41,957 bases of DNA from an uncultured Eubacteriales bacterium (GCA_963627985.1 CAVGDP010000017.1:1-41957); one strand, 5' to 3'. Shown: positions 7,919 through 41,957, numbered from the stretch's first letter. Translations and numbers: made by a program. Notes: generated by a model from the letters alone, not told the origin.

Positions 7919-8032
7919 ATTCGAAGTTGGTTTTCTTAATTTTTGATAAGTATATTAAATTCTTAATATTTAGTATTTTATCTTTTTTGTGAATTGTTTT
8001 TACTTGTCCGAATTTTTTTTAATTCTATCAAA

Positions 8033-8095
8033 ATAATATTTGATTTTATTCTAATAACCTTTGATAATATTCTAATAAGTACGTTTATTATCAAA
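8033..8095 (-). repeat. short (3-unit) degenerate member of the 21-bp phased array family, upstream of tilS
   Basis: Plus-strand units are ATAATATTTGATTTTATTCTA / ATAACCTTTGATAATATTCTA / ATAAGTACGTTTATTATCAAA, each exactly 21 nt. Minus-strand reading includes TAGAATAAAATCAAATATTAT, matching units in the 36580 array. Confidence 0.55.
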
Positions 8096-8211
8096 TTCTT
8101 TACTGATATTAATTCATTTCTTGTAGGTCGATAATAAACTATTACCAGTAAAGAATATTTGATTAAATGATATTAGCGACATTATCTTTTATGTTATTCA
8201 CATTGAATATA

Positions 8212-12466: not shown

Positions 12467-12717
12467 GTGGAATTGTATTTATTTCGATTTGAAATAATAA
12501 AATAGACCTTTGTATAATAATGATTTTATGGTTATTATAGGGGTTATTGATTTAGCTTAAAGTCTATATTATATATTATTAAAAGGCAATTAAACAGAAT
12601 TAATTGTTTATTGTTTTTAGATTATTTTTCCTTCCGTGAACCATTGCTTAAATTTTTACGATAGGGGAAATAGAACATTTTAAAGAAATAGAAAATAGAA
12701 TAGTATCGCATTTTATC

Positions 12718-12801
12718 AAAATAAAATCAATAATCATTCGAATAAAATCAATAACTATTCAGATAAAGTCAATAATTATTTTGATGATTTTAGTATCTAT
12801 T
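12718..12801 (+). repeat. 21-bp phased tandem array (3 good units plus 1 degenerate)
   Basis: Units are AAAATAAAATCAATAATCATT / CGAATAAAATCAATAACTATT / CAGATAAAGTCAATAATTATT / TTGATGATTTTAGTATCTATT, preceded by TTTATC as in the 27625 and 36580 arrays. Confidence 0.75.
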
Positions 12802-12811
12802 TTAATTATTA

Positions 12812-12904
12812 TATAATCAAATCATTATAAAGACGAAAGAATTGTCCATTTTTGCTCAAAATATACCTCTCAAAAATACATTTATAGGAAAAATAGAATA
12901 TTTT
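12812..12904 (+). repeat. conserved 3' module of the array element (copy 1)
   Basis: TATAATCAAAT (12812), TCTCAAAAATACA (12868) and AAATAGAATATTTT (12891) lie at offsets 0/56/79. The copy at 27844 has the same offsets. Confidence 0.65.
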
Positions 12905-22595: not shown

Positions 22596-24899
22596 ATGAA
22601 AAAAATATTTTCCTTATTCATATTTGCTTTTGTTTCTTTCACTTTGTTTGCTCAAACAGGTACAATAAAAGGATTTGTATACAATATTATGGACGGAGAG
22701 CCAATAATGTTTGCTAATATTATTGTAGATAAAACTCAATTAGGTGCAAGTTCGGATATAAATGGTTTCTTTGTAATTAACAAAGTACCTGTTGGTAAGC
22801 AAAATATCAAAGTTCAAGTAATAGGTTATGCAGATACAATAATAAGTTTGGAAGTATCGCAAAACAAAGCCTTGAATATAAAAATAGAATTGACTCCTCA
22901 ATCACAAATACTTGAAACAATAGAAATTTCTGCTGCAAAAGAAATGGCTAAAACAGAATCGCGTGTGTCTGTAAAGAAAGTTACCGCTGTTGAAATTCAA
23001 AAAATGCCTTCTGTCGGAGGACAAGCCGATTTTGCACAGTATATACAAGTACTTCCTGGTGTTGTTTTCTCTGGCGACCAAGGTGGACAATTATATATTA
23101 GGGGAGGTTCTGCAATTCAAAACAAAGTTCTTTTGGATGGTATGACTATCTATAATCCTTTTCATTCTATTGGTTTATTCTCTGTTTTTGAGACAGATAT
23201 TATTCGTAACGCAGATGTTTATACGGGCGGATTCAATGCTCGTTATGGAGGACGATTATCCTCTATTATGGACATAACTACTCGCGATGGTAATAAGAAA
23301 AGAACAACAGGTAAAGTCTCTTTATCTACCTTTGGAGCGTCTGCCATTGTAGAAGGACCATTAATTGCCGATAAGGAAGATAGAGATTTCTCCGTTTCAT
23401 ATCTATTAACCGAAAAGAATTCGTATCTTTCGCAAACATCCAAATCAATTTATTCTTATACAAATACAGAATTGCCATACGACTTCTTAGATTTGTATGG
23501 TAAATTAACAATAGCATCCAGAACAGGTAGTAAGGCAAATATTTTTGGTTTTAATTTTACGGATAAAGTAAACGGATACAAGAGTATAGCAGATTTTAAT
23601 TGGAAAAATAGTGGAGCAGGTGCTAATTTTGTAATTGTTCCGCAAAATTCGTCCTCTATCGTTCAAGGTGTAGTCGCTTATTCTAATTATACAATGAATA
23701 TGAACGAGACGACTAATCAAAGTGAACAAAAAAGTAATATAAGTTCTTTCAATGGTAGTATTGATGTTACACAATTTTTCAACAAGAATCAATTGCGTTA
23801 TGGTGTTGATTTGATGTGGAATACTACCAAAACATTATTCGAAGGACAAGAGGAAGAACAAAAAGATTATTCCTCCGATTTGGGAGCCTATATGATATTC
23901 AAAGGTTTTGTTGGTAATCTACTCTATGAACCAAGTATTAGATTATCTTATTATGCCTCTTTGGCAGAAGCTGTTTTTGAGCCTCGTTTATCGTTGAAAT
24001 ATAATCTTACAGATAGATTTAGATTCAAAGCTGCATTAGGAAAATATTCTCAAACCTTTATTGATACTAAATCGGATAGAGATATAGTTAATTTATTTAC
24101 AGGTTATTTGACCACAAGCCCCGATCTTTTTGGTGGCGTTGTGAATACTTACAAAGGGGACGAAGTTACGCATTATATAGAAAAATCTAATCATTATATC
24201 TTCGGATTTGAATACGATATAATCAAACAACTAACCGCTAATATAGAAGGATACTACAAGACTATGACCAATCTTATTTCCGTTAATAGAGATAGAATTT
24301 ATGATAATGATAACGCTCATGCTTCATACCCAGATTATTTGAAAAAGAATTTTGCCGTAGAGGAAGGCAAAGCGTATGGTATGGATATGAGTTTGAAATA
24401 TGATAACGGTAGGTTATATGTTTGGGCGATATATTCATACGGTAAAGTAGAGAAAACAAGCGAGACACAGACCTATAATCCTCATTATGATAGAAGACAT
24501 AATGTTAATATTTTGGTTTCATATCAATTAGGAATGGAACGTTCGTGGGAGATTAGTGCTCGTTGGAATTACGGTTCAGGTTTTCCTTTTACTGCTACTG
24601 CAGGATTTGGGGAGATACTTTCTTTCTCTGGTGGAGTTAATAGCGATTATACTTCTCGCTCTGGTAGTTTAACTACAATGTATGGTAGTTTGAATGCAAA
24701 GCGATTACCATCTTATCATCGTTTGGATGTTTCTCTCAAGAAGCGTTTTACTCTTTTCCGCCATTCTATCTTGGAAGTAGAAGCAAGTGTTACCAATATT
24801 TATAATAGAAATAACATGTTCTATTACGATAGAATAACTTCCGAGCGGATAGACCAATTACCAATTATGCCGTCCTTAGGTATGACCTTACGGTTCTAA
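22596..24899 (+). CDS. TonB-dependent outer-membrane receptor with N-terminal carboxypeptidase-regulatory-like domain
   Basis: 767 aa with a signal peptide and a CarbopepD_reg-like start (GTIKGFVYNIMDGEPIMFANIIV). Plug-region motifs (LPGV, IRGG, DGMTIYNP) and a long beta-barrel ending ...LRF are present. Confidence 0.9.
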   Translation: MKKIFSLFIFAFVSFTLFAQTGTIKGFVYNIMDGEPIMFANIIVDKTQLGASSDINGFFVINKVPVGKQNIKVQVIGYADTIISLEVSQNKALNIKIELTPQSQILETIEISAAKEMAKTESRVSVKKVTAVEIQKMPSVGGQADFAQYIQVLPGVVFSGDQGGQLYIRGGSAIQNKVLLDGMTIYNPFHSIGLFSVFETDIIRNADVYTGGFNARYGGRLSSIMDITTRDGNKKRTTGKVSLSTFGASAIVEGPLIADKEDRDFSVSYLLTEKNSYLSQTSKSIYSYTNTELPYDFLDLYGKLTIASRTGSKANIFGFNFTDKVNGYKSIADFNWKNSGAGANFVIVPQNSSSIVQGVVAYSNYTMNMNETTNQSEQKSNISSFNGSIDVTQFFNKNQLRYGVDLMWNTTKTLFEGQEEEQKDYSSDLGAYMIFKGFVGNLLYEPSIRLSYYASLAEAVFEPRLSLKYNLTDRFRFKAALGKYSQTFIDTKSDRDIVNLFTGYLTTSPDLFGGVVNTYKGDEVTHYIEKSNHYIFGFEYDIIKQLTANIEGYYKTMTNLISVNRDRIYDNDNAHASYPDYLKKNFAVEEGKAYGMDMSLKYDNGRLYVWAIYSYGKVEKTSETQTYNPHYDRRHNVNILVSYQLGMERSWEISARWNYGSGFPFTATAGFGEILSFSGGVNSDYTSRSGSLTTMYGSLNAKRLPSYHRLDVSLKKRFTLFRHSILEVEASVTNIYNRNNMFYYDRITSERIDQLPIMPSLGMTLRF

Positions 24900-24981
24900 T
24901 ATTCTTCTCTTACTAATTAATATTTCTTCTTTTACTAATTAATATTATTCTCGTGCCGATTAATATTACTAACCGACTATT
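24897..24981 (+). repeat. four tandem 21-22-bp units each starting TAATATT
   Basis: Units are TAATATTCTTCTCTTACTAAT / TAATATTTCTTCTTTTACTAAT / TAATATTATTCTCGTGCCGAT / TAATATTACTAACCGACTATT. The first unit includes the receptor stop codon. Confidence 0.55.
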
Positions 24982-27518: not shown

Positions 27519-27624
27519 TGATATATTTTTAGAAAAAAGGGGATAAATCAACAAGTTTTTTAGAGAATAGATACAAATATTGTCTTTCGTGGTAAGATAT
27601 TTTCTCTATTATTACTCTTTATCA

Positions 27625-27813
27625 AAATAAAATCAATAACTATTTAAATAAAATCAATAACTATTTAAATAAAATCAATAACTATTTAAATAAAATCAAT
27701 AACTATTTAAATAAAATCAATAACTATTTAAATAAAATCAATAACTATTTAAATAAAATCAATAACTATTTGAATAAAATCAGATGTTATTTCAACGAAA
27801 TCAGATATTATTT
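27625..27813 (+). repeat. 21-bp phased tandem array, 9 units (7 identical)
   Basis: AAATAAAATCAATAACTATTT is repeated 7 times with no substitution (27625-27771), then GAATAAAATCAGATGTTATTT and CAACGAAATCAGATATTATTT follow. Confidence 0.92.
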
Positions 27814-27843: not shown

Positions 27844-27936
27844 TATAATCAAATTATCACAGAGGTAGGAGTTTTTTCTATTTTTTGCTAAAAAACAATT
27901 CTCAAAAATACACATACAAGGAAAATAGAATATTTT
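27844..27936 (+). repeat. conserved 3' module of the array element (copy 2)
   Basis: TATAATCAAAT (27844), TCTCAAAAATACA (27900) and AAATAGAATATTTT (27923) lie at offsets 0/56/79, identical to copy 1. Confidence 0.65.
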
Positions 27937-28104: not shown

Positions 28105-29898
28105 TTAGTTTTCTTTCTTTTCCATCTCTTCTTTTAATGAAGCCAAAACGTCCAAATCACCGAGAGTAGTTTTCTCTAAGTTTTGATTGATTTGTTTCAT
28201 AACGTTACCTTCTTTTCTTGGTTTGTTTTCGTCTTCTTGTTTCCAAGTTTTAGTGTGAGAAAGAACGATACGTTTTGCTTCTTTTTGGAATTCTATTACC
28301 TTAAATGAAAGTTTTTCATCTACTTTTGGCATAGTCTTGTCCTCTTTTTGCATTTGACCTTTTGGACAGAAACCTTCTATTCCGTATGGTAAATTAACAA
28401 CTGCACCACTCTTTTCATTAACACTTGTTATAGTGCCTTCGTGAACAGAACCAACGGTAAAGATGGTCTCGAAGACGTCCCAAGGATTTTCTTCTAATTG
28501 TTTGTGTCCCAAAGATAATCTTCTGTTTTCAGGATCTATGCTAAGAACAACAACATCTAACTTCTCGCCAATTTTTGTAAATTCAGCAGGGTGTTTAATT
28601 TTCTTATTCCAAGACAAATCAGAGATATGAATCAAACCATCTACGCCTTCTTCTAATTCTACAAAGATACCGAAATTAGTAAAGTTGCGAACAGTTGCAG
28701 TGTGTTTGCTTTCAACAGGATATTTCTTATCAATATCTATCCAAGGATCAGGCATTAGCTGTTTCATTCCTAAAGACATCTTTCTCTCTTCTCTATCCAA
28801 GGTCAAGATTATTGCCTCTACTTCATCACCTACTTTCAAGAAATCTTGGGCAGTACGTAAGTGTTGGCTCCAACTCATTTCTGTTACGTGAATTAGACCT
28901 TCTACGCCAGGGATTATTTCTACGAATGCACCGTAATCTGCTATCACAACAACTTTACCTTTAACCTTATCACCAACTTTTAAGTTTGGATCTAATTGAT
29001 CCCAAGGGTGAGCGGTAAGTTGTTTCAAACCAAGAGCGATTCTTTTCTTTGTCTCGTCAAAGTCTAAAATTACGACTTTTAGTTTTTGATCCAAATGAAC
29101 AATTTCTTCTGGTGAATTAATTCTACCCCAAGACAAATCCGTAATATGAATAAGTCCATCAACGCCACCTAAATCGATAAATACACCGTATGAAGTTATA
29201 TTCTTAACTATACCTTCTAATACTTGACCTTTTTCTAAATGAGACATAATCTCTATCTTTTGAGCCTCTATCTCATCTTCTATCAAAGCCTTATGAGATA
29301 CTACGATATTCTTGTATTCATTGTTGATTTTGATAATCTTAAATTCCATCGTCTTATCAACAAATACGTCGTAATCTCTTATAGGTTTTACGTCTATTTG
29401 CGAACCTGGTAAAAATGCTTCTATTCCAAAAACGTCTACAATTAGACCTCCTTTGGTTCTTGACTTAACGTAGCCTTTTATTATCTCTCCACTTTGGAAT
29501 GCTTCATTAACTCTACCCCAAGATTTTAGAATTCTTGCTTTCTTGTGGCTCAAAACCAATTGACCATTAGAATCTTCTTGATTCTCGATAAATACTTCAA
29601 CTTTGTCACCTATCTTCAAATCTGGGTTATAGCGAAATTCTGAAGCAGGTATAACGCCATCGGATTTGAAATCAATATTTACAACAACTTCTCTGTCGTT
29701 AATAGATACAACAGTGCCGTCTGCTAATTGATCATCTCCTATGCTACCGAATGTTTTGTCGTAAGCAGCTTGAAGTTTTTCCCTGTCTTCTTTGCTGTAA
29801 GTTTGTTTGGAATCAACCGAAGCCCAATCAAAATCTTGTAAAGGCTGAACGTCTTTTAAATCTCTCATATTGAGAATAAATTTGTTTGTTTTGTACAA
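28105..29898 (-). CDS. rpsA: 30S ribosomal protein S1
   Basis: Six S1/OB repeats are visible (for example GIVKNITSYGVFIDLGG, GKVVVIADYGAFVEI, ATVRNFTNFGIFVEL). The more likely start may be the internal ATG at 29868 (MRDLKDVQPLQDFDW). Confidence 0.96.
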   Translation of the reverse strand: MYKTNKFILNMRDLKDVQPLQDFDWASVDSKQTYSKEDREKLQAAYDKTFGSIGDDQLADGTVVSINDREVVVNIDFKSDGVIPASEFRYNPDLKIGDKVEVFIENQEDSNGQLVLSHKKARILKSWGRVNEAFQSGEIIKGYVKSRTKGGLIVDVFGIEAFLPGSQIDVKPIRDYDVFVDKTMEFKIIKINNEYKNIVVSHKALIEDEIEAQKIEIMSHLEKGQVLEGIVKNITSYGVFIDLGGVDGLIHITDLSWGRINSPEEIVHLDQKLKVVILDFDETKKRIALGLKQLTAHPWDQLDPNLKVGDKVKGKVVVIADYGAFVEIIPGVEGLIHVTEMSWSQHLRTAQDFLKVGDEVEAIILTLDREERKMSLGMKQLMPDPWIDIDKKYPVESKHTATVRNFTNFGIFVELEEGVDGLIHISDLSWNKKIKHPAEFTKIGEKLDVVVLSIDPENRRLSLGHKQLEENPWDVFETIFTVGSVHEGTITSVNEKSGAVVNLPYGIEGFCPKGQMQKEDKTMPKVDEKLSFKVIEFQKEAKRIVLSHTKTWKQEDENKPRKEGNVMKQINQNLEKTTLGDLDVLASLKEEMEKKEN

Positions 29899-29983
29899 TT
29901 CCCTGTTGAATTGAAAGATTAAACACTAAATTTTATTTATTCGCTTAATGATAACAGGCTCATTACTTGCGAATATCAGGGTG

Positions 29984-29991
29984 CAAAGATA
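29984..29991 (-). promoter_or_regulatory. TAnnTTTG -7 box for rpsA
   Basis: The minus strand reads TATCTTTG followed by CA, about 85-115 nt upstream of the candidate starts. Confidence 0.5.
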
Positions 29992-30129
29992 CAAAAATTT
30001 TCTATTCTACCAATATTTTTGCAGTTTTTTACTATTTTTAAGGTCATTTTTTGTTATTTCCTATTTAGTTTTCTTTCAACAAAAACTTTTTTAATACTAC
30101 CTCTTAAAACAATATCAGTATCCTTCGAA

Positions 30130-30276
30130 ATAAGTATTGATTTTATTTTAATAAGTATTGAAGTTATTTTGATAAGTACTTTATTTATTTTGATAAGTAC
30201 TTTATTTATTTTGATAAGTATTGAAGTTATTTTGATAAGTACTTTATTTATTTTGATAAGTATTGAAGTTATTTTG
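30130..30276 (-). repeat. 21-bp phased tandem array, 7 units of two interleaved subtypes, upstream of the rpsA promoter
   Basis: Plus-strand units are ATAAGTATTGATTTTATTTTA, then ATAAGTATTGAAGTTATTTTG (A) and ATAAGTACTTTATTTATTTTG (B) in the order A,B,B,A,B,A. The minus-strand reading of the first unit is TAAAATAAAATCAATACTTAT. Confidence 0.88.
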
Positions 30277-30565
30277 ACCAAGTGTGATATTATGAAAATG
30301 TTAGATTTTTAGAAATATGTTATTTCGCTATCTGCTGTTTTCTTACTTAAAGATAATACTTCAAAGAGAGACAATTTTGGAATGGAGTTTGTTTTTGGTC
30401 GCTCCGAACTACTAAAACTCTATTTCTTTATTCAATTTTAAAAGAGAATACGAAAGATTATTAAGCAAAGATGCTTGAAAATTATAGTAGAATAAAAATT
30501 CACCAAAACACAGATACGATTTATTTTATTTATTCTTATATGTAGACAATTATAAATAATTATAG

Positions 30566-30573
30566 TATCTTTG
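30566..30573 (+). promoter_or_regulatory. TAnnTTTG -7 box for the EamA transporter gene
   Basis: TATCTTTG followed by CA lies 22 nt upstream of the ATG at 30595. Confidence 0.5.
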
Positions 30574-30594
30574 CAAACTGAAAGTTAGAAAAGA

Positions 30595-31533
30595 ATGACA
30601 AAGAAAAAACTAAAAATATGGGGTTATATAGCAATAATTATTGCTGTTGTTTTGTGGGGAATGAGTTTTGTTTGGACTAAACAACTTTTGCAACTAAATT
30701 TTCCTGTCTTTACTATTATAATAGCACGATTGGTGATTGCGTCTATTGTTTTACTTCTGATATTCAAACCAAAAAATCAAATAGAACATATAGATAGGAA
30801 AGATTTTCTTTTGTTTATTCTCTTGGCTTTATGCGAACCGTTCTTGTATTTTATAGGTGAGAATTTTGGATTAGTATATGTTTCACCCTCTCTTACTGCG
30901 GCAATAATAGCATTAATTCCCATAGCGACAGCATTTGGATTGAATATATTTTATAAAGAAAAATTGAGAAAAAAAATATTCTTTGGTGCAATAATCTCTA
31001 CTATTGGTATAGTGATAATGAGTTTCTCTTCGGAGGGTTTTGTTATTGGTTGGCAAGGGTTATTATTGCTTTTGTTAGCAGTTATTTCGGCTACTGGTTA
31101 TGGTCTAATCTTGCAAAAAATATTAGCGAAAGGTTATGGACCTGTAACAATTACGACTTGGCAAAATATTATCTCTATAATATATTATTTACCTTGTTTT
31201 TTGATCGTTGATTGGGATAAATTACCTACGATAAATTGGTCTGCGCAAGCAATTTTTAATCTAATAGTATTAGGAGTCTTGTGCTCGGCAGTGGCTTTTG
31301 CTTTGTATTCTGCTTCTGCCAAAGTAATAAGTGTAGCAGGTGCGACAATATTTACTAACGTTATTCCCATCGTTACGCTTATTGTTAGTGTGGCAATAGG
31401 TTTGGAGGTGTTGAATATACAAAAAACAGTAGGGATATTAGTAGTTATAGGAGGGGTATTACTTAGTCAAATAACATATCAACACAAGAGTAAATTGAGA
31501 GGAGATAAAGAAATATCAAAATCTAATAAGTAG
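30595..31533 (+). CDS. DMT superfamily (EamA-type) transporter
   Basis: 312 aa with about ten TM helices arranged as two EamA-like halves. Confidence 0.82.
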   Translation: MTKKKLKIWGYIAIIIAVVLWGMSFVWTKQLLQLNFPVFTIIIARLVIASIVLLLIFKPKNQIEHIDRKDFLLFILLALCEPFLYFIGENFGLVYVSPSLTAAIIALIPIATAFGLNIFYKEKLRKKIFFGAIISTIGIVIMSFSSEGFVIGWQGLLLLLLAVISATGYGLILQKILAKGYGPVTITTWQNIISIIYYLPCFLIVDWDKLPTINWSAQAIFNLIVLGVLCSAVAFALYSASAKVISVAGATIFTNVIPIVTLIVSVAIGLEVLNIQKTVGILVVIGGVLLSQITYQHKSKLRGDKEISKSNK

Positions 31534-31551
31534 TTAAAAGAAACAAAAAAA

Positions 31552-32424
31552 ATGAAAGTCAAAATTGGTATGATACAAATGTCTTGTCAGAAAGATAAGA
31601 CGAAAAATATAGAGAAAGTAGTAGAAAATATAAAGGATTTGGCGAAAAGAGGAGCGAATATTATTTGTACTCAAGAGTTGTTTGCGTCTTTGTATTTCTG
31701 CGATGTAGAAGAGCACGATAATTTCTTATTAGCAGAACAAATACCAGGACCAACGACAGAAATTCTATCCAAATTAGCAAAACAATTAAATATAGTAATT
31801 ATTGCCTCAATGTTTGAAAAACAAATGGCGGGTTTGTATTATAATACTACGATAGTGATAGATGCTGATGGGACGTATTTAGGAAAATATCGCAAGATGC
31901 ATATACCAGATGACCCGGGTTATTATGAAAAATTCTATTTTACGCCAGGAGATTTGGGTTATAAGGTATTTGAGACCAAATTTGCTAAAATAGGTGTGCT
32001 TATTTGTTGGGATCAATGGTATCCGGAGGCTTCTCGGCTTACGGCTATGAAAGGAGCACAAATTATTTTCTATCCAACGGCGATTGGTTGGGCTACTTCG
32101 CAAGATGAACAGACAAATAAAGAGCAGTATATGGCATGGCAAACGATACAAAGGGGACATGCTATTGCTAATGGCGTACATACTGTTTCTATTAATAGAG
32201 TTGGACAAGAAGGAGATATGATGTTTTGGGGAGGAAGTTTTGTTTCTAACCCTTTTGGTACGATTTTGTATGAGGCTTCTCACACAAAAGAAGAAAATCA
32301 AATCATAGAAGTGGATTTATCTCAAACAGATTATTATCGTGTACATTGGCCATTTTTTAGAGATAGGAGAATAGATTCCTACAAAGATATTACACGAAAA
32401 TATATAGAAACAAAAGAAGAATAA
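31552..32424 (+). CDS. aguB: N-carbamoylputrescine amidase (carbon-nitrogen hydrolase family)
   Basis: 290 aa with CN-hydrolase Glu/Lys/Cys contexts CTQELF, YRKMHIP and VLICWDQWYPE. It is adjacent to agmatine deiminase. Confidence 0.86.
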   Translation: MKVKIGMIQMSCQKDKTKNIEKVVENIKDLAKRGANIICTQELFASLYFCDVEEHDNFLLAEQIPGPTTEILSKLAKQLNIVIIASMFEKQMAGLYYNTTIVIDADGTYLGKYRKMHIPDDPGYYEKFYFTPGDLGYKVFETKFAKIGVLICWDQWYPEASRLTAMKGAQIIFYPTAIGWATSQDEQTNKEQYMAWQTIQRGHAIANGVHTVSINRVGQEGDMMFWGGSFVSNPFGTILYEASHTKEENQIIEVDLSQTDYYRVHWPFFRDRRIDSYKDITRKYIETKEE

Positions 32425-32451
32425 TAACAAATATTTAAGTGATTATTGCTA

Positions 32452-33513
32452 ATGAAAAATATACAAATATACGATTCTAAACCAGTAGAAGAGAATTTCT
32501 TTTTTCCTGCAGAGTGGATAGAGCATCAAAGTACGTGGTTGTCTTATCCACATAACGAGAATTCGTGGCCGGGTAAGATAGAAAAGATTTTTCCTTACTA
32601 CAACGAGTTTATAAAACAATTAGCAAAAGACGAACAAGTTAATATAAATGTAGAAAATGAAAAGAAATCAAACCAAATAGACAAAGAGTTGTCCTTATTA
32701 GGTGTAAATATGAAAAATATTTGCTTTCATATCTTTCCAACTAATGATGCCTGGATAAGAGATCACGGTCCTGCGTTCGTAATAAATGATAACCAAAAGG
32801 CAATAGTTAATTGGAAATACAACGCTTGGGGAGAAAAGTATCCGTATGATAAAGATAATTTAATACCTCATAAGATTGCAGAGTGTTTATCATTAAAAGA
32901 GTTTGTGGCAGATATAATTATGGAAGGCGGAAGTGTAGATTTTAATGGCAAAGGAGATCTTATTACAACAGAAAGTTGTCTTTTGAATAAGAATCGTAAC
33001 AATAATCTAACGCAAACAGAAATAGAGCAACGCTTGTGTGATTATTACGGAGTGAATAATATTATCTGGCTAAAAGAAGGTATAGAGGGCGATGACACAG
33101 ACGGACATATAGACGATTTAACGCGTTTTGTGGATGCAAATACAGTTATTACGATGGTAAGTGATAACAAAAATAGTGCGGATTATGAAATTTTGCAGAC
33201 AAATCTTCGTTTACTAAAAAAGGCAAGACTACAAAATGGCAAACAAATTGATATAATAGAGATGCTTTTGCCACAAGATGTAATATATGAGGAACAAAAA
33301 TTGCCGGCTTCTTACGCTAACTTCTACATTGCTAATAAGAAGGTAATAGTTCCTTTGTATAAATGCGAAAATGATGATAAAGCGATGCAAATATTTGAAA
33401 AAGTTTTCGCAGATAGACAAGTTATCGGTATAGATTCTACTGATATTGTTTGGGGATTAGGTAGTTTTCATTGTTTATCTCAACAAGAGCCTCGTTTGAT
33501 AAGAAAAGAATAA
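32452..33513 (+). CDS. aguA: agmatine deiminase
   Basis: AWIRDHGP and the C-terminal catalytic-Cys context GSFHCLSQQ are present. The track start at 32446 is a TTG, and the ATG at 32452 (MKNIQIY) is preferred. Confidence 0.9.
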   Translation: MKNIQIYDSKPVEENFFFPAEWIEHQSTWLSYPHNENSWPGKIEKIFPYYNEFIKQLAKDEQVNINVENEKKSNQIDKELSLLGVNMKNICFHIFPTNDAWIRDHGPAFVINDNQKAIVNWKYNAWGEKYPYDKDNLIPHKIAECLSLKEFVADIIMEGGSVDFNGKGDLITTESCLLNKNRNNNLTQTEIEQRLCDYYGVNNIIWLKEGIEGDDTDGHIDDLTRFVDANTVITMVSDNKNSADYEILQTNLRLLKKARLQNGKQIDIIEMLLPQDVIYEEQKLPASYANFYIANKKVIVPLYKCENDDKAMQIFEKVFADRQVIGIDSTDIVWGLGSFHCLSQQEPRLIRKE

Positions 33514-33552
33514 AAAATATAGAAATAACAATAAAACAAAATAATAAAAAGG

Positions 33553-35277
33553 ATGAAAAAAGTAACATTTTTGTTAATTGCTTTGATTTTTGGAATAAAT
33601 CTTATAGCACAAAATACTTTCGAAAAGATGTATAATCAATCGGATGCAATACTTCCTTTGGGTAATGACTTCTTTTCGGTAAAGAAAGGTAGTAAATGGG
33701 CGGTTATGAAGAATAATGTAATGATACTTGATTATTATTATGATTCTATTGACGTATTAAGCGATGGTATTATTACATATATCAAAAATAATCAAGCAGG
33801 TTTTGCCGATACTTTGGGAAATATTATAACTTTGGCTATATATCCCTTGAATACTCCTTATATTCGTAGCGAAGAATCATTATTAAATGTATTTCAAAAG
33901 GGTAGTGCTTTGGTCTATGACAAAGATAAATTAATTCTTTTGAGCAAAGAGGGTACTCAAATCAATAATGAGGACTGTCAAATTATTTCTAAGGCGGATA
34001 ATGTAGTAATATTTAGAAATAAATCTGCATACGGCTTAATGGATGCCAAAGGAAATATAATTACACAGAATAAATATCGCAGAATTGAGACTGTTATAGC
34101 GGGTGAATTGTATGCTTATATCAAAAATATAGATAATAGAGATTATGTTGGCTTAATAGATAAGAACGGAGTTATAAAATCGGAGGCTCTTTACGATGAT
34201 ATGACAATTATTAGTAAAAATGATAAATTCTATATCAAAGCATTTGTTTCTTCTGGCAAACAAGCGTTGTTTGATAATGAAGGTAATCAAATTTTTTCTC
34301 CTTTGTATCAAAATATAGAGCCATTAAGCAAAGAAGATAACTATTTTATCTATACTGACAACGGACGTAAAGGTCTAATAGATAGAAATTATAACATTCG
34401 TATTAGTGCTTCTTACGATGATTTGAGACTTCTGTCCATTAAGAAGGATACTTTTGTGGTTGCAAAGAATGATAATATAACTTATATCGTTACTTTGGAT
34501 AATCAAATGGTAGATTTTCTCACTGGAGCCATAAAAGATTTTGTTTCATACACTAATAACGAGTTGATATACATAGCAGATAGTATGCTTAACTATGGTA
34601 TTCGTTCCAATAAGAGAGGTTGGTTGGTTGAACCCAAATATTTGGATATTTTTGCCGAATGTAAAGGTACTTATATCGTGCGTCAGAAGGATAAATGGGG
34701 AGGAATTGATATTAATGGAACAGAAAAAATCCCGTTTGAGTACAATAAAGTACGTGCCTCCAAAAGTAAATCTTGTATTGTCTTCTATGACGGCAAGAAG
34801 AATTCTATATTATTAAAAGAAAATGGTCAAAAAATGGAATTTACCAAAACTGATAATATTTTCCCTATGTCTAATTATGTGGAATACAAAACAAAAGGCA
34901 AGAGATATCGTTTATATTTTGATGGTAGAGAAATAAAAGGTAATTTTACTTTAATTGCTTCCGATAAGGATGGTATTCTGTGTGCTAAAACGAAAAAAGG
35001 ATGGTCTTACTTTGATAATAAAACCTATGAGAACCTAACTAATGAGTATTTTGATATGGCAACTTACTTTGATAAGGGTGTTGCGTACGTTGTTAAGGAT
35101 AAAAAATTATATCAAATAGATACTTCTTTTGCTATTATTCAAACTATTTTGGATGATAATTACATGGATCTGAATGATATCGCAAGTTCGTTGAGTGCGA
35201 TAGGTAAATTGAAGAAAAATTACATTATTCTAACCGATAAGAATAAGAAAAAAACTTTATTAAAGATAAATAATTAA
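33553..35277 (+). CDS. WG-repeat (KWG-type) containing secreted protein
   Basis: 574 aa with a signal peptide and repeated modules such as KKGSKWAVMKNN, SAYGLMDAKGNII, DYVGLIDKNGVI, KDKWGGIDINGTEKIPFEY and KKGWSYFDNKTYE. Confidence 0.8.
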   Translation: MKKVTFLLIALIFGINLIAQNTFEKMYNQSDAILPLGNDFFSVKKGSKWAVMKNNVMILDYYYDSIDVLSDGIITYIKNNQAGFADTLGNIITLAIYPLNTPYIRSEESLLNVFQKGSALVYDKDKLILLSKEGTQINNEDCQIISKADNVVIFRNKSAYGLMDAKGNIITQNKYRRIETVIAGELYAYIKNIDNRDYVGLIDKNGVIKSEALYDDMTIISKNDKFYIKAFVSSGKQALFDNEGNQIFSPLYQNIEPLSKEDNYFIYTDNGRKGLIDRNYNIRISASYDDLRLLSIKKDTFVVAKNDNITYIVTLDNQMVDFLTGAIKDFVSYTNNELIYIADSMLNYGIRSNKRGWLVEPKYLDIFAECKGTYIVRQKDKWGGIDINGTEKIPFEYNKVRASKSKSCIVFYDGKKNSILLKENGQKMEFTKTDNIFPMSNYVEYKTKGKRYRLYFDGREIKGNFTLIASDKDGILCAKTKKGWSYFDNKTYENLTNEYFDMATYFDKGVAYVVKDKKLYQIDTSFAIIQTILDDNYMDLNDIASSLSAIGKLKKNYIILTDKNKKKTLLKINN

Positions 35278-35282
35278 AAACA

Positions 35283-36449
35283 ATGAAAGTAATGAAAACA
35301 ACAAAAGTACAAATAATTATTCTATGTTTTGCCATAATGATACCTTGGTGTTTATCGGCACAAACATATAGGTCATATCCGTACAACAGTGGTAAGAATA
35401 TAACAGAGGGTACTGTTTATTATCTACCAAAAACGGATTTGGTTATCAAATTTCAAGTAAAGAAAACAACAAGAACGAAAGGTATTTATTCAGATAATGC
35501 TTATCTTTTGGGAATAGATAATTCTGCTCTAAAAAATAGTACAACGTATCAAATAGTTGGCGTTGATATTCAAGAGAAAACATCTGCCGATGCGGATAAA
35601 TGTTATATCTTGGAAACAGATAAGAATATTACCGTTGATAAGACTTCTATTGGTACATTAAGAAGTATTTTGCAAAAAAACGCTAAAGAACAAAATACAG
35701 GAAATAGTATTCAAAAGCCAAGAAAATGTTCTCAAAAGCAAGAGAATAGACCACCTGCTATGCCACCTACACTAAACAAAGAAGATAATAGTCTAATGGT
35801 AAGACCAACGTATGAAAAGATTTTGATGCAAGAAGGTTTGCTTACCAAATATCCACAAATGACTGCCGAGAAAGTAGTTGCCGAGATAAAAAGATTAAGA
35901 GATAAGCAATTAGAGATACTTACCGGTGCTATGGAGGGTACATATATGAATACGACCGTTGATTATATGTACAAACAAATAGACGAAATTATTTCTTCAT
36001 ATATTGCCTTGTTTACAGGTATAGAAAGCAGTACAATAGAAGAATATGTTTTTGTTATTACACCACAAAAACCTATAATATTAGAGGAAGATTTGGTAGT
36101 ACCTGTTTGTAAATTCTCTACCACACAAGGACTTATGGATTTGAATAGCAAACAAGAGGGTATAAGAATTAATGCTTCTATTCATTCATTTGTTTCGAGC
36201 GAGGAAAGCAATAAGATTAATTCTACCGAGTTTGTCTCCAAGAAACAAAAATCAAAAATTGAGAACGAGGGTGTTGGAGTTTATTATTTGAATCCGCAAA
36301 TGGTTAGGGTTACTTTGCAAGGTGCAGATATAATGACAACTTCCAAGATGGTTAATCTTATGCAATACGGCAATATAGGTTATACAACGTCTCATACTTC
36401 TAATATTCTGTTTGATAATCGCACATCGGAGATTATCAATATGTGGTAG
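35283..36449 (+). CDS. secreted hypothetical protein (resembles the Bacteroidales DUF4831 family from memory)
   Basis: 388 aa with a signal peptide and an N-terminal GTVYYLPKTDLVIKFQV segment. The family assignment is unverified. Confidence 0.6.
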   Translation: MKVMKTTKVQIIILCFAIMIPWCLSAQTYRSYPYNSGKNITEGTVYYLPKTDLVIKFQVKKTTRTKGIYSDNAYLLGIDNSALKNSTTYQIVGVDIQEKTSADADKCYILETDKNITVDKTSIGTLRSILQKNAKEQNTGNSIQKPRKCSQKQENRPPAMPPTLNKEDNSLMVRPTYEKILMQEGLLTKYPQMTAEKVVAEIKRLRDKQLEILTGAMEGTYMNTTVDYMYKQIDEIISSYIALFTGIESSTIEEYVFVITPQKPIILEEDLVVPVCKFSTTQGLMDLNSKQEGIRINASIHSFVSSEESNKINSTEFVSKKQKSKIENEGVGVYYLNPQMVRVTLQGADIMTTSKMVNLMQYGNIGYTTSHTSNILFDNRTSEIINMW

Positions 36450-36579
36450 TAGGGGATAAGTATATTGAATTACTACAATTTGTCTTAATAAAGGGATGAG
36501 TTGTAGTAATTTCTTTATTATTAGTAGTTAATAGGGTATGATAGTCTATGCGAATATTTATAGAAAGAGTAATTTTATC

Positions 36580-36789
36580 AAAATAAAATCACGAATCATT
36601 TGAATAGAATCAGATTTCATGAAAATAGAATCACATTTCATGAAAATAATATCAGTACTTATTAAAATAACTACGCTACTTATTAAAATAACTACGCTAC
36701 TTATCGAAATATCTTTTGAAGTTATTAGAATAAAATCAAAGATTATTAGGATGAAATCACATTTTATGAGAATAAAACGACATTTTGTT
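36580..36789 (+). repeat. 21-bp phased tandem array, 10 units with a conserved 5' half and variable core
   Basis: Ten consecutive 21-nt units run with no indel, and only one adjacent pair is near-identical (AAAATAACTACGCTACTTATT/C). The array is preceded by TTTATC. Confidence 0.85.
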
Positions 36790-36958
36790 TTGATAGAAGC
36801 GATTTTTCTTCTAAAATCTCTATAATTACTGTCCAGGAAATAGATTTCTGTGTTTTTGAGTAATATATTTAGTAATTGATATGCAGTTTTTTATACGCAA
36901 AAATAAGATTTGAGTAAAATAAATTGTCTAAAAATTTGTATAGTAACAAAAATGAATA

Positions 36959-36966
36959 TAATTTTG
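36959..36966 (+). promoter_or_regulatory. TAnnTTTG -7 box for the arginine decarboxylase-like gene
   Basis: TAATTTTG followed by CA lies 75 nt upstream of the ATG at 37041. Confidence 0.4.
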
Positions 36967-37040
36967 CAATCTTAAAGTAAGTTGATTGGATTATTAAATT
37001 TTTACTAAACTAAATAGATTAGATAGACATAAAAAAAGAA

Positions 37041-38438
37041 ATGAAAAATAAGTATATTGATCTTATTGAACAGACATTTGAGTTTCCGCAAGACGAATTT
37101 TCTGTGACAGGGAGCGAATTAAATTTCCACGATATCCCATTGATGGACATTATTAAACAGTATGGAACGCCGTTGAGATTGACTTATTTACCCAAAATAT
37201 CTTTTCAAATTCAAAGAGGCAAACGTTTTTTTAATGTAGCAAGAGCAAAATTAGATTACAAAGGTACATATAATTATTGTTATTGTACAAAATCTTCGCA
37301 TTTTGCTTTTGTTTTGGATGAGGTATTGAAAAATGAGGTTAATTTGGAAACTTCTTCCGCTTTTGATATTAATATAATTGAGGAATTGTATAACCAAAAA
37401 AAGATAACTAAACAACAATTTATTATCTGTAATGGGTTTAAGCGTCCGCAATACATTGAGAATATTTGTCATTTAATTGATGATGGTTTTTGCAATATTA
37501 TACCGATTATTGACAATATAGAGGAGTTGGATGCTATGGATAAGCGAGTTAATGTTGATTGTAATGTTGGTATTCGCATTGCAACAGAGGAGGCTCCGCA
37601 ATTCGATTTCTATACTTCTCGGTTAGGAATTCGTTATAACGAAATACTTGATTTCTACAAAAGTAAAATACAAAATAATCCTAAATTCAAACTAAAAATG
37701 CTTCATTTCTTTATTAATACGGGTATAAAAGATACGGCGTATTATTGGAGTGAATTGGGTAAGTGCGTTAATGTTTATTGCGAATTGAAAAAGATTGCTC
37801 CTTATTTGGATAGTTTGAATATTGGTGGGGGATTTCCGATTAAGAACTCGTTAGGTTTTGAGTACGATTACGAATATATGACCGAGGAAATCTTGGGACA
37901 AATCAAGGATATTTGCAATAAAAACGATGTTGAGGAACCAAATATCTTTACTGAGTTTGGATCATTTACTGTTGGTGAATCTGGATGTATTCTTTACTCT
38001 ATTATAGACCAAAAACACCAAAATGATAGGGAACTTTGGTACATGATAGACTCGTCTTTTATAACAACCCTGCCGGATACTTGGGGAATAGGACAGAGAT
38101 TTATATTGTTGCCGATAAATAAATGGAATAATGAGTACGGAAGAGTATTTTTAGGAGGATTAACTTGCGATTCGCAAGATTATTATTCGGCAGAAACTCA
38201 TTCTAATGCGATATTCTTGCCAAAATTTCAAAATAATGATAACGAACCTTTGTATATAGGATTTTTTCATACGGGGGCATATCAAGAAACATTGGCAGGA
38301 TATGGAGGAATACAGCATTGTTTGATTCCTCAACCGAAACATGTTATATTAGATAAGGATGAAAATGGAGAATGGACCACAAAATTATTCGCCAAAGAGC
38401 AGTCGCATAAGGCTATGCTCAAAATATTAGGATATTAG
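37041..38438 (+). CDS. speA: PLP-dependent group IV (Orn/DAP/Arg) decarboxylase, probable arginine decarboxylase
   Basis: 465 aa with the PLP-Lys context YCYCTKSSH, the glycine loop LNIGGGFPI and the Cys motif GGLTCDSQDY. Proximity to aguA/aguB supports arginine as substrate, but this is inference. Confidence 0.8.
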   Translation: MKNKYIDLIEQTFEFPQDEFSVTGSELNFHDIPLMDIIKQYGTPLRLTYLPKISFQIQRGKRFFNVARAKLDYKGTYNYCYCTKSSHFAFVLDEVLKNEVNLETSSAFDINIIEELYNQKKITKQQFIICNGFKRPQYIENICHLIDDGFCNIIPIIDNIEELDAMDKRVNVDCNVGIRIATEEAPQFDFYTSRLGIRYNEILDFYKSKIQNNPKFKLKMLHFFINTGIKDTAYYWSELGKCVNVYCELKKIAPYLDSLNIGGGFPIKNSLGFEYDYEYMTEEILGQIKDICNKNDVEEPNIFTEFGSFTVGESGCILYSIIDQKHQNDRELWYMIDSSFITTLPDTWGIGQRFILLPINKWNNEYGRVFLGGLTCDSQDYYSAETHSNAIFLPKFQNNDNEPLYIGFFHTGAYQETLAGYGGIQHCLIPQPKHVILDKDENGEWTTKLFAKEQSHKAMLKILGY

Positions 38439-41812: not shown

Positions 41813-41902
41813 TCAATAAATAAGAAGTCTTTTTACTTGGATAAGAGTGCAGAGAAATTAATTATTAGAAAAGAATAGAGTTGTCTTAAAGCAGAAACAT
41901 AA

Positions 41903-41957
41903 AAATAAAATCAATAACTATTCAAATAACTTCAATAACTATTCAAATAACTTCAAT
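41903..41957 (+). repeat. 21-bp phased tandem array, truncated by the window end
   Basis: AAATAAAATCAATAACTATTC / AAATAACTTCAATAACTATTC / AAATAACTTCAAT... The AACTTCAATA subtype also occurs in the 30130 array. Confidence 0.8.

What the first reader, a model, noticed from the sequence alone, without database searches (positions are those of the whole stretch)
36580..36789. Ten-unit array that keeps exact 21-bp phase while the unit cores diverge
The units read AAAATAAAATCACGAATCATT, TGAATAGAATCAGATTTCATG, AAAATAGAATCACATTTCATG, AAAATAATATCAGTACTTATT, AAAATAACTACGCTACTTATT, AAAATAACTACGCTACTTATC, GAAATATCTTTTGAAGTTATT, AGAATAAAATCAAAGATTATT, AGGATGAAATCACATTTTATG and AGAATAAAACGACATTTTGTT. There is not one indel over 210 bp, although most units differ from each other at many positions. 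Differences concentrate in roughly positions 8-18, while the RAAATA start and the TTATT/TCATG end are retained. An old slippage product drifting neutrally would be expected to lose phase. Retained phase together with a diversified core suggests selection on periodicity, or a set of related but distinct recognition sites. The array lies 250 bp upstream of the arginine decarboxylase-like gene and in the same orientation.
Basis: partly seen in the sequence, partly recalled or inferred. Interest (0 to 1): 0.65.

Follow-up and report, generated by a model that had tools for sequence, protein, structure and literature searches.

The report
Dispersed 21-bp palindromic minisatellite family
The ten-unit array upstream of the arginine decarboxylase gene is real, but it is one copy of a genome-wide family of strictly 21-bp-phased, palindrome-built repeat arrays that litter the intergenic DNA of an uncultured gut/rumen Bacteroidales bacterium and sit at genome rearrangement points, rather than a switch made for that gene.

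Summary
It is not unique. The 42-kb window holds six arrays of the same family, all intergenic. A related genome (assembly CAVAII01, 78-85% nt identity in genes) holds at least 22 more. Across 28 arrays and 176 units there are 712 mismatches between adjacent units and no phase shift. Each unit is an imperfect 19-bp palindrome (AATAAWATC-A-GATWTTATT) plus a 2-bp linker, so dyad axes recur every two helical turns. Arrays are mosaics of recurring unit types, and several A5 units match units in other arrays or the other species better than their own neighbours. The link to speA is not conserved. SpeA orthologues at 85-93% aa identity keep the same promoter and 5'UTR but have no array, and the left-hand gene has a different, array-free neighbour in relatives. 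Window arrays lie where synteny with relatives breaks, including an inverted rpsA segment flanked by inverted arrays. Closest known analogue: the BrickBuilt 23-nt minisatellite element of Porphyromonas gingivalis. No family-wide terminal inverted repeats were found, so it is not filed as a MITE. Verdict: a new variant of a known kind of dispersed intergenic repeat. A protein-binding lattice remains possible.

The parts
36580..36789 (+). Array A5: ten 21-bp units, the finding itself. It is the most diverged array of the family in this window.
   Evidence: Units 1, 4, 7 and 8 match units elsewhere at 19-20/21. Units 2, 3, 9 and 10 are private, 4-5 mismatches from any CAVAII unit.
36573..36797 (+). 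Array plus its two boundary half-units. The left end TTTTATCAAAATAAAA and the right end TTTTGTTTTGATAGAA are inverted copies (14/16) and pair in the predicted fold.
   Evidence: 14/16 against a shuffle maximum of 13. RNA fold z = -3.6, with the ends paired. This is not a family-wide property.
35283..36449 (+). Upstream gene, a DUF4831 protein. Collinearity with relatives ends about 10 bp after its stop codon.
   Evidence: Pfam. L103 11847-17757 aligns to window 30549-36458.
36467..36512 (+). Terminator-like hairpin of the DUF4831 gene, lying before the array.
36935..36966 (+). The speA gene's own Bacteroidetes-type promoter: -33 TTTG at 36935-36938 and -7 TAATTTTG at 36959-36966. It starts about 145 bp after the array end.
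   Evidence: Read directly from the sequence. The -7 box and about 70 nt of leader are conserved in five array-free relatives. The consensus TTTG / TAnnTTTG is from general knowledge of Bacteroidetes promoters.
37041..38438 (+). Arginine decarboxylase-like gene (speA-type PLP decarboxylase).
8032..8115 (-). Array A1, four units, between the DPP-IV and tilS genes.
12697..12780 (+). Array A2, four units, between efp and porU. It is flanked on both sides by motif M.
27624..27812 (+). Array A3, nine units, seven of them 20-21/21 identical. It lies next to the 3' end of the inverted rpsA gene.
30129..30275 (-). Array A4, seven units of two alternating types. It lies upstream of rpsA and is inverted relative to A3.
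41902..41957 (+). Array A6. It runs off the end of the window.
28105..29999 (-). The rpsA gene with its promoter, inverted relative to three related genomes and bracketed by A3 and A4.
   Evidence: L103 9873-11764 aligns to window 29999-28105.
12665..12681 (+). Motif M (GGRAAATAGAAYATTTT) upstream of A2. Further copies are at 12888-12904 and 27920-27936. It belongs to a roughly 130-bp 'tail' shared by A2, A3 and CAVAII arrays.

Best explanation
A5 is one locus of a lineage-specific, dispersed, non-coding repeat family in an uncultured Bacteroidales genome. The family consists of tandem arrays of a 21-bp unit that is itself an imperfect 19-bp palindrome plus a 2-bp linker.

The arrays occupy intergenic DNA anywhere in the chromosome: after genes, before genes, and between convergent genes. 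They are gained, lost and reshuffled faster than gene order is conserved.

They most likely evolve by whole-unit events. These would be slipped-strand or unequal-exchange gain and loss of 21-bp units, and ectopic recombination or gene conversion between arrays drawing on a shared pool of unit types. Such events would produce mosaics of recurring unit variants while keeping the 21-bp register exact.

As dispersed homologous sequence, the arrays also serve as substrates for rearrangement, for example the rpsA inversion between the inverted arrays A3 and A4.

At speA the array merely fills the space between the terminator of the upstream gene and the conserved speA promoter. Any effect on speA is secondary.

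Shown: the family, its strict phase, dyad symmetry, mosaicism, cross-species unit types, lack of positional conservation, and coincidence with synteny breaks.

Inferred: the whole-unit turnover mechanism and the causal role in rearrangements.

My split for why the phase is kept:
- whole-unit turnover alone, about 0.45
- an added constraint from a protein that binds the palindromes on one face of the helix, about 0.4
- other explanations, about 0.15
For: - Six arrays in the 42-kb window, with 48 PWM hits against 14 in shuffles.
- At least 22 arrays in 18 loci of assembly CAVAII01, which is 78-85% nt identical to the window in shared genes.
- Period 21/42/63 accounts for 10 of 12 window tandem repeats and 37 of 48 CAVAII tandem repeats.
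- 28 arrays, 176 units, 712 adjacent-unit mismatches, 0 phase shifts. Flanks show 0.195 gap openings per mismatch.
- Dyad axis at unit position 12: 57% complementarity against about 33% at other centres.
- Unit types are shared across arrays and species beyond a column-shuffled null.
- All arrays are intergenic, in mixed orientation, often 4-40 bp after stop codons, and next to housekeeping genes with no transposase nearby.
- Orthologous intergenic regions in relatives are short and array-free.
- Every testable window array junction is a synteny break: efp|porU, both rpsA flanks, and DUF4831|speA.
- Short-read assemblies break inside the arrays.
- Precedent: BrickBuilt, PMC4596501.
Against: - No mobilisation signature was found: no family-wide terminal inverted repeats, no identifiable target-site duplication, and no empty-versus-filled site pair.
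- Zero indels in 176 units is stricter than in BrickBuilt, which has 0-6% indels. Near-identical unit types persist in two species whose genes differ by 15-22%. Both facts suggest constraint on the sequence itself, not just a turnover mechanism.
- The link between arrays and rearrangement is a correlation from four junctions.
- No strain-level relatives exist in the databases, so copy-number change has not been observed directly.
Confidence: 0.6

Rival explanations
1. Selected protein-binding lattice. The arrays are functional docking platforms for an unidentified dimeric DNA-binding protein, such as a nucleoid-associated, silencer- or insulator-type protein, or the family's own recombinase. 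This protein would recognise the 19-bp palindromes. The exact two-turn spacing puts all sites on one face, so the protein can polymerise cooperatively. Different unit types would tune affinity or recruit paralogues.
For: - Dyad symmetry is centred at unit position 12.
- The period is exactly 21 bp, about 2 x 10.5 bp, with no indel in 176 units despite 712 substitutions.
- The register is preserved even where units switch to the reverse orientation (L037, L038).
- Unit types are conserved between species beyond the null.
- AT-only stems make stable hairpins unlikely, and A5 as single-stranded DNA folds only weakly (z = -1.7).
- Predicted static curvature is not elevated, so shape alone does not explain the phasing.
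Against: - No candidate protein was identified.
- The arrays are not conserved at orthologous positions and are absent from close relatives.
- Copy number ranges from 2 to 11 units with no positional rule relative to promoters.
- Palindromic units and strict period could be inherited from a single ancestral unit.
Confidence: 0.28
2. Dedicated cis-regulatory array of the speA promoter. The ten related sites would be operators or an upstream activating region that controls arginine decarboxylase.
For: - The array is on the same strand as speA and 251 bp upstream of the ATG.
- The neighbouring genes are polyamine-pathway genes, agmatine deiminase and N-carbamoylputrescine amidase.
- A 21-bp spacing of palindromes recalls tandem ARG boxes. 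This is a resemblance from memory and was not tested.
Against: - The same arrays sit next to tilS, porU, rpsA, EF-Ts, mutL, ispH and other genes, and between convergent genes.
- Five SpeA orthologues keep the promoter and leader without any array.
- The DUF4831|speA adjacency itself is unique to this genome.
- The array ends about 145 bp before the -33 box of the promoter.
Confidence: 0.05
3. RNA-level element, analogous to REP/BIME. The arrays would be transcribed as 3' or 5' UTR segments whose hairpins stabilise or terminate transcripts, or as small RNAs.
For: - Many CAVAII arrays start 4-40 bp after a stop codon.
- The A5 RNA fold has z = -3.6 on the + strand and -2.4 on the - strand.
Against: - In A5 a terminator-like hairpin precedes the array.
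- The stems are AT-only, and most of the A5 signal comes from one 17-bp end pairing.
- Array orientation relative to flanking genes is mixed.
- There is no Rfam match.
Confidence: 0.05
4. Small heptad-repeat proteins. The 21-bp period equals 7 codons, and the arrays would encode amphipathic repeat peptides.
For: - Two frames are stop-free in about 90% of unit types. These are sense frame 0 (for example KIKSVIS) and antisense frame 1 (for example ITDFILI).
- A 68-codon ORF lies at 36619-36825.
Against: - There is no consistent start codon or strand.
- Arrays sit 4-40 bp after other genes' stops or between convergent genes.
- 22-bp variants exist in the same genomes.
- The stop-free frames largely follow from the conserved A/G-initial triplets: column-sampled (PWM-sampled) units are about 83% stop-free in the antisense frame.
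Confidence: 0.02

Closest known systems
BrickBuilt minisatellite/MITE of Porphyromonas gingivalis (Klein et al. 2015, PMC4596501)
   Same: - The host is in the same order, Bacteroidales.
- Both are spacer-less tandem repeats about two helical turns long (23 nt against 21 nt).
- Both have imperfect units with conserved and variable positions.
- Both are multi-copy, always intergenic, and 49-591 nt from coding sequences.
- Both have conserved flanking 'leader/tail' sequence at some copies.
- Both have dyad symmetry and no Rfam match, and a terminator of the upstream gene can precede the element.
   Different: - BrickBuilt has IS5-like terminal inverted repeats on its leader and tail. No family-wide inverted termini were found here, and the flanking motif M occurs as direct, not inverted, copies.
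- BrickBuilt arrays carry 0-6% indels. These carry none in 176 units.
- There is no sequence similarity between the two.
- Density is much higher here: 6 per 42 kb against 19 per 2.3 Mb.
BOX elements of Streptococcus pneumoniae (boxA-boxB(n)-boxC); comparison from general knowledge
   Same: Both are modular dispersed intergenic repeats with a variable number of internal tandem units between conserved end modules. Both are non-coding and are scattered next to unrelated genes.
   Different: The BOX unit is 45 bp and not palindromic at unit level. The host phylum is different, and BOX elements have defined A and C end modules. Nothing here was tested against BOX.
REP/BIME (including IHF-binding RIP/RIB) elements of enterobacteria; comparison from general knowledge
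   Same: Both are palindromic units clustered in intergenic DNA, often just after genes and in alternating orientation. Some REP/BIME elements bind nucleoid proteins (IHF, gyrase).
   Different: REP units are GC-rich hairpins of 35-40 bp with variable linkers, are not strictly phased, and are mobilised by RAYT transposases. No RAYT-like gene or GTAG-type motif was seen here.
Plasmid iterons and tandem ARG-box operators; comparison from general knowledge
   Same: Both are direct repeats or palindromes spaced at about 21-22 bp, so that bound proteins lie on one helical face.
   Different: Iterons and ARG boxes occur at one or a few loci tied to an origin or a regulon. These arrays occur at dozens of chromosomal loci with no common gene class. 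The window shows no GC-skew switch and no plasmid or phage match.

Membership tests
[quoted passage not shown] | Spacer-less tandem direct repeats of about 2 helical turns, in multiple intergenic copies | tested here: met
[quoted passage not shown] | [quoted passage not shown] | tested here: inconclusive
   A tail of about 130 bp with motif M is shared by A2, A3 and several CAVAII arrays. A5, A1 and A4 have only degenerate or no counterparts, and no common leader was found.
[quoted passage not shown] | Terminal inverted repeats matching an IS family | tested here: not met
   Only 2 of 22 arrays (A5 at 14/16, L084b at 13/16) exceed shuffled controls. Motif M flanks arrays as direct copies. No transposase lies beside any array.
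[quoted passage not shown] | Target-site duplications, or empty versus filled sites showing insertion | not testable with these tools
   Every array junction in the window coincides with a change of neighbouring gene in relatives, so no clean empty site exists. No strain-level relatives are in the databases.
[quoted passage not shown] | Sequence homology to BrickBuilt | not tested
The TIRs printed in the paper (GAGACCTTTGCA) are GC-richer than anything at these array ends.
Gene-specific operator or upstream-activating array (for example ARG boxes) for speA | Sites conserved upstream of the orthologous gene in related genomes | tested here: not met
Gene-specific operator or upstream-activating array (for example ARG boxes) for speA | Sites restricted to a functionally coherent regulon | tested here: not met
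Intrinsically curved (phased A-tract) upstream DNA | Predicted static curvature above the genomic background | tested here: not met
   A5 6.7, A3 3.4 and A4 10.6 degrees per turn, against a window mean of 7.8 and a phased-A6 control of 23. The wedge angles were recalled from memory, so this is indicative only.
Known structured RNA family | Match to an Rfam covariance model | tested here: not met

The most novel reading that the evidence does not exclude
The arrays are a genome-wide, selected lattice of palindromic sites for a so-far unknown Bacteroidales DNA-binding protein. This could be a nucleoid organiser or silencer, or a recombination system. It would polymerise on one face of the helix at two-turn spacing. 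The repertoire of unit types would be maintained by selection across species, and the arrays would actively shape chromosome architecture and rearrangement.
Probability: 0.25. Interest if true: 0.75.

Novelty: new variant of a known kind. Interest (0 to 1): 0.42.

Why it matters
If the family is as dense genome-wide as in this window (about one array per 7 kb, about 1.8% of the DNA), it is a major and undescribed component of the intergenic space of a rumen/gut Bacteroidales lineage.

- It fragments short-read assemblies, because contigs end inside arrays. This biases MAG quality for the clade.
- It marks, and may cause, synteny breaks.
- The combination of a strict two-turn register, palindromic units and cross-species unit types gives a clean system for one question. 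Are bacterial minisatellites kept in phase by their turnover mechanism or by a bound protein?

For speA itself the result is sobering. The gene's real control region is the conserved promoter and leader downstream of the array.

Tried and rejected
- **Static DNA curvature from phased A-tracts.** Predicted curvature of the arrays is not above the window background.
- **MITE with terminal inverted repeats.** The inverted ends seen in A5 are not general to the family (repeat finder did not report them either).
- **Known RNA.** No Rfam hit in the window, in the A5 region at E<=1, or in six CAVAII loci. No tRNA or tmRNA was found.
- **Plasmid or phage origin.** No blastn match. The viral-contig pattern scan gave only scattered single hits.
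- **Genome-contig scan with two 21-bp-spaced AATAAAATCA cores.** It was useful only for CAVAII01 and ruminal_MAG_7.
- **Metagenome-contig scan with three cores.** It returned 40 loci of heterogeneous 21-bp repeats that share only the 10-mer, many from very AT-rich, probably eukaryotic contigs. It was not informative about this family.
- **Orthologous-locus test for A5.** This could not be done in the strict sense, because no relative shares the DUF4831|speA adjacency.
- **Longer S1 and EF-P database proteins (P0129-P0132, P0243).** These were suspected of reading through arrays. They turned out to be internal duplications of the protein.
- **Coding hypothesis.** Stop-free frames are largely explained by unit composition.
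- **Resemblances to Fur boxes (GATAA-N9-TTATC frame), DnaA boxes (TTATCAAAA against TTATCCACA), IHF sites (WATCAR) and dif cores.** I noted these from memory and did not test them. The spacing or key bases differ, and the genome-wide distribution does not fit a regulon.
- **Search for window proteins next to A1, A3 and A6 in the fetched loci.** No homologues were found, so those junctions could not be compared.

Full report
**1. The observation**

Self-identity of the region is 0.66 at lag 21, 0.58 at lag 42 and 0.53 at lag 63, against about 0.31 elsewhere. TRF reports period-21 arrays over 36572-36777.

Two short-read contigs from run SRR13434610 (L097, L001) carry the identical left and right halves. 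They break at the nearly identical units 5/6. The array is therefore real, although the copy number of that one unit is not independently confirmed.

**2. It is not a singular object**

TRF on the whole window finds period-21 arrays at six intergenic sites. A position-weight scan built from the units finds 48 hits against 14 in shuffles. The hits chain in exact 21-bp steps at these sites:

| Array | Coordinates | Strand |
|---|---|---|
| A1 | 8032-8115 | - |
| A2 | 12697-12780 | + |
| A3 | 27624-27812 | + |
| A4 | 30129-30275 | - |
| A5 | 36580-36789 | + |
| A6 | 41902 to the window end | + |

Ten of the 12 window tandem repeats with period >= 7 have period 21 or 63.

The host is an uncultured Bacteroidales bacterium with 31% G+C. 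It carries type IX secretion genes porU, porV and porP. Its SpeA, S1 and EF-P homologues are all named as Bacteroidales MAG proteins.

**3. The family in a second species**

A pattern scan of species-representative genomes found 18 loci in assembly CAVAII01 (GCA_963588535.1). The record title says Erysipelotrichaceae, but the contigs are 78-85% identical in nucleotide sequence to window genes and collinear with them over several kb.

These loci hold at least 22 arrays of the same family, plus other 21/42-bp arrays with unrelated units. Thirty-seven of 48 tandem repeats there have period 21, 42 or 63. Many of those contigs begin or end inside an array, as do L001 and L097. The repeats therefore break short-read assemblies.

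**4. Anatomy of the unit**

I laid out all arrays in 21-nt rows. This gave 28 arrays, 176 units (148 distinct) and 148 adjacent pairs. There were 712 mismatches between adjacent units and not one shift of register.

- Conserved positions are 3-6 (AATA), 10-13 (TCAG) and 17-21 (TTATT).
- Positions 1-2, 7-9 and 14-16 vary.
- There is a sharp dyad axis at position 12, with 57% complementary pairs against about 33% for neighbouring centres.

The archetypal unit is therefore a 19-bp palindrome, AATAAWATC-A-GATWTTATT, followed by 2 bp. Toward the right-hand end of many arrays the units are effectively in reverse orientation: the junction TTATTTTGATAA is the reverse complement of TTATCAAAATAA. The lattice still stays in register (L037 and L038). 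Twenty-one bp is two turns of B-DNA, so all dyads face the same side.

**5. Is phase retention meaningful?**

The homologous non-array tails that follow A2, A3 and several CAVAII arrays align at 61-84% identity with 103 gap openings per 527 mismatches, about 0.2. At even a tenth of that rate the arrays should have accumulated more than ten indels. They have none.

BrickBuilt arrays, the closest analogue, carry 0-6% indels.

**6. Are the cores random?**

No. Several A5 units have their best match outside A5:

- Unit 1 matches A2 and L054 at 19/21.
- Unit 4 matches L016 at 20/21.
- Unit 7, the most aberrant unit in A5, matches L060:4517 at 20/21.
- Unit 8 matches A1 and L095 at 20/21.

The best chance matches are 15-17.

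Over all 27 distinct window units, the mean distance to the nearest CAVAII unit is 2.44 mismatches, against 3.68 +- 0.25 for column-shuffled units. Seven units lie within one mismatch, against 1.1 expected and a maximum of 5 in 500 trials. Unit types are thus a shared repertoire, and arrays are mosaics of them. Examples are the a/b alternation in A4, and the AAAATATTATCAGTACTTATT and AAAATAAAATCAGTAAAGAAT types recurring in many CAVAII arrays.

A5 is the most degenerate member. Units 2, 3, 9 and 10 are 4-5 mismatches from anything else.

**7. Relation to genes**

All arrays are intergenic. In the window, four of five arrays point toward a downstream gene. A3 points at the 3' end of rpsA.

In CAVAII the orientation is mixed. 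Several arrays lie between convergent genes or 4-40 bp after a stop codon. Neighbouring genes are ordinary housekeeping genes with no common theme and no transposase. They include:

- rhomboid, an LptD-like protein and a YitT-family protein
- a Na/Pi transporter, ispH and mutL
- a helicase, mlaD and EF-Ts
- ETF, a fucosidase and a glycosyltransferase

**8. Relation to speA**

The layout around A5 is as follows:

| Feature | Coordinates | Source |
|---|---|---|
| DUF4831 stop codon | 36449 | |
| Terminator-like hairpin | 36467-36512 | |
| Array A5 | 36580-36789 | |
| -33 box TTTG | 36935-36938 | |
| -7 box TAATTTTG | 36959-36966 | |
| speA ATG | 37041 | |

SpeA orthologues at 93, 91, 86 and 85% aa identity (L002-L011, L098-L100) have upstream regions of only 160-235 bp. 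These conserve the -7 box and about 70 nt of leader but contain no array, and their flanking genes differ.

Conversely, in three relatives (L101-L103) the block EamA, amidase, agmatine deiminase, WG-repeat protein and DUF4831 is collinear with window 30549-36458. It is then followed by an HU-HIG gene after 311 array-free bp. The array therefore sits exactly at a synteny break and is not part of conserved speA control.

**9. Arrays and rearrangements**

In L101-L103, rpsA and EamA are co-oriented and 131 bp apart. In the window, rpsA with its promoter (28105-29999) is inverted. It is bracketed by A3(+) and A4(-), which are inverted relative to each other.

The efp region is homologous to relatives only up to 4 bp past the efp stop codon. 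After that comes A2 and a different neighbour: porU here, yceG there. Every window junction I could test (efp|porU, both sides of rpsA, DUF4831|speA) is both an array site and a synteny break.

This fits recombination between dispersed arrays, or insertion together with rearrangement. It is still a correlation.

**10. Flanks and mobility**

A2 and A3 share about 130 bp after the array. This tail, with a 17-25-bp motif M (ATAAGGAAAATAGAACATTTTTGAG), recurs next to CAVAII arrays. It lies typically about 40 bp on one side and about 95 bp on the other, as direct copies about 220-240 bp apart.

A5 has only a degenerate counterpart. Its ends are inverted copies (14/16), and they pair in the RNA fold (z = -3.6). 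Across 22 arrays, however, only two exceed shuffled controls, so there is no family-wide TIR. No target duplication or empty site could be defined.

**11. Other readings tested**

- Curvature is not elevated (wedge parameters recalled from memory).
- There is no Rfam match.
- There is no plasmid or phage similarity.
- Two reading frames are mostly stop-free. Unit composition largely explains this, and there are no consistent start codons.

**12. Comparison with the known**

The closest described system is BrickBuilt of P. gingivalis. It is a 23-nt spacer-less minisatellite with leader, tail and IS5-like TIRs. It has 19 intergenic copies, dyad symmetry and promoter activity (PMC4596501).

The present family behaves like it: a dispersed, intergenic, roughly two-turn minisatellite in Bacteroidales. 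It fails the TIR criterion, is indel-free, is built of palindromic units and is far denser. I therefore call it a new variant of a known kind, not a member of the BrickBuilt/MITE family.

**13. Verdict**

The 'selection on periodicity / related sites' idea is partly supported. The speA-specific reading is not supported.

The most likely explanation is a dispersed minisatellite family evolving by whole-unit turnover and acting as a recombination substrate (0.6). The main rival, or addition, is a selected protein-binding lattice (about 0.25-0.3).

Noticed in passing
window 36935-37040; L002 9885-10000, L006, L009, L098, L099: The speA promoter (-7 box TAnnTTTG) and a leader of about 70 nt (AAAGTAAnTTGAnTGGATT ... 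AAAGTAAC ... TTAGATA) are conserved across SpeA orthologues at 85-93% aa identity, even though the flanking genes differ. This could be a regulatory 5'UTR. It has no Rfam match.
   Followed up: partly
window 24897-24967; L060 3570-3810: Directly after the orthologous TonB-dependent receptor gene, both genomes carry 21/22-bp tandem units of different sequence: TAATATTCTTCTCTTACTAAT here and CTGCCGTCTTCTCGTTTTTAT in L060. They share a TCTTCTC core. In L060 they are arranged as a long inverted repeat around three 22-bp units. This may be an orthologous array that has diverged while keeping its period.
   Followed up: partly
window 12665-12681, 12888-12904, 27920-27936; L016 91-107, L051 296-312 and 538-554, L061 3628-3644 and 3847-3863, L083 1804-1820 and 2022-2038: Motif M (GGAAAATAGAACATTTT, often extended to ATAAGG...TTTGAG) flanks arrays as direct copies about 220-240 bp apart in two species, including arrays of an unrelated unit type (ATAAAGTGCCACTTTAT). 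Its role is unknown. It could be a promoter-like -7 element or a module boundary.
   Followed up: partly
window 28105-29999: The rpsA gene with its promoter is inverted relative to L101-L103 and bracketed by the inverted arrays A3 and A4.
   Followed up: yes
L016-L095, L103 (assembly CAVAII01, GCA_963588535.1): The record title says 'Erysipelotrichaceae bacterium'. However, the contigs encode T9SS cargo (CHU_C) and are 78-85% identical and collinear with this Bacteroidales window. The label looks wrong, or the bin is mixed.
   Followed up: partly
L061 3750-3809, L083 1905-1986, L022 1-45, L084 345-419, L060 4601-4666, L056 5581-5705: These genomes contain further 21/42-bp arrays with quite different cores, such as ATAAACTGCCAGTTTAT, TTTCGACCATTCA and GGAGTAAGGGG. 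Some share the ATAA...TTAT frame, and some lie directly next to the main family. The 21-bp period seems more general than any one unit sequence.
   Followed up: no
L002 11436-11568 and 18415-18520; L003 18177-18264, 19542-19633: The genome whose SpeA is the closest match (93% aa identity; ruminal_MAG_7 and a bovine metagenome contig) carries 42-bp intergenic tandem repeats (AGAAATTGGGGTGGCTTCAAAGAAGACGGCCAAATTGCTCCA). Gene callers annotate these as 45-aa ORFs.
   Followed up: no
window 21020-21078: A 30-bp repeat (two copies, 96% matches; CTTACTACTTCCGCAGACGATGAAGAAGAT) lies inside the FGE-sulfatase-domain gene at 19727-21304.
   Followed up: no
P0129-P0132 (S1, 771-772 aa) and P0243 (EF-P, 307 aa): These database proteins from ENA/NCBI assemblies contain an internal duplication of about 180 or 120 residues. 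They are probably assembly artefacts rather than array read-through.
   Followed up: yes
window 36619-36825 (+) and the antisense frame across 36580-36789: Long stop-free frames run through the array on both strands, giving heptad-like peptides (KI..LI and ITDFILI types). Composition mostly explains this, but real unit types are slightly more stop-free than column-sampled ones (92% against about 83%).
   Followed up: partly
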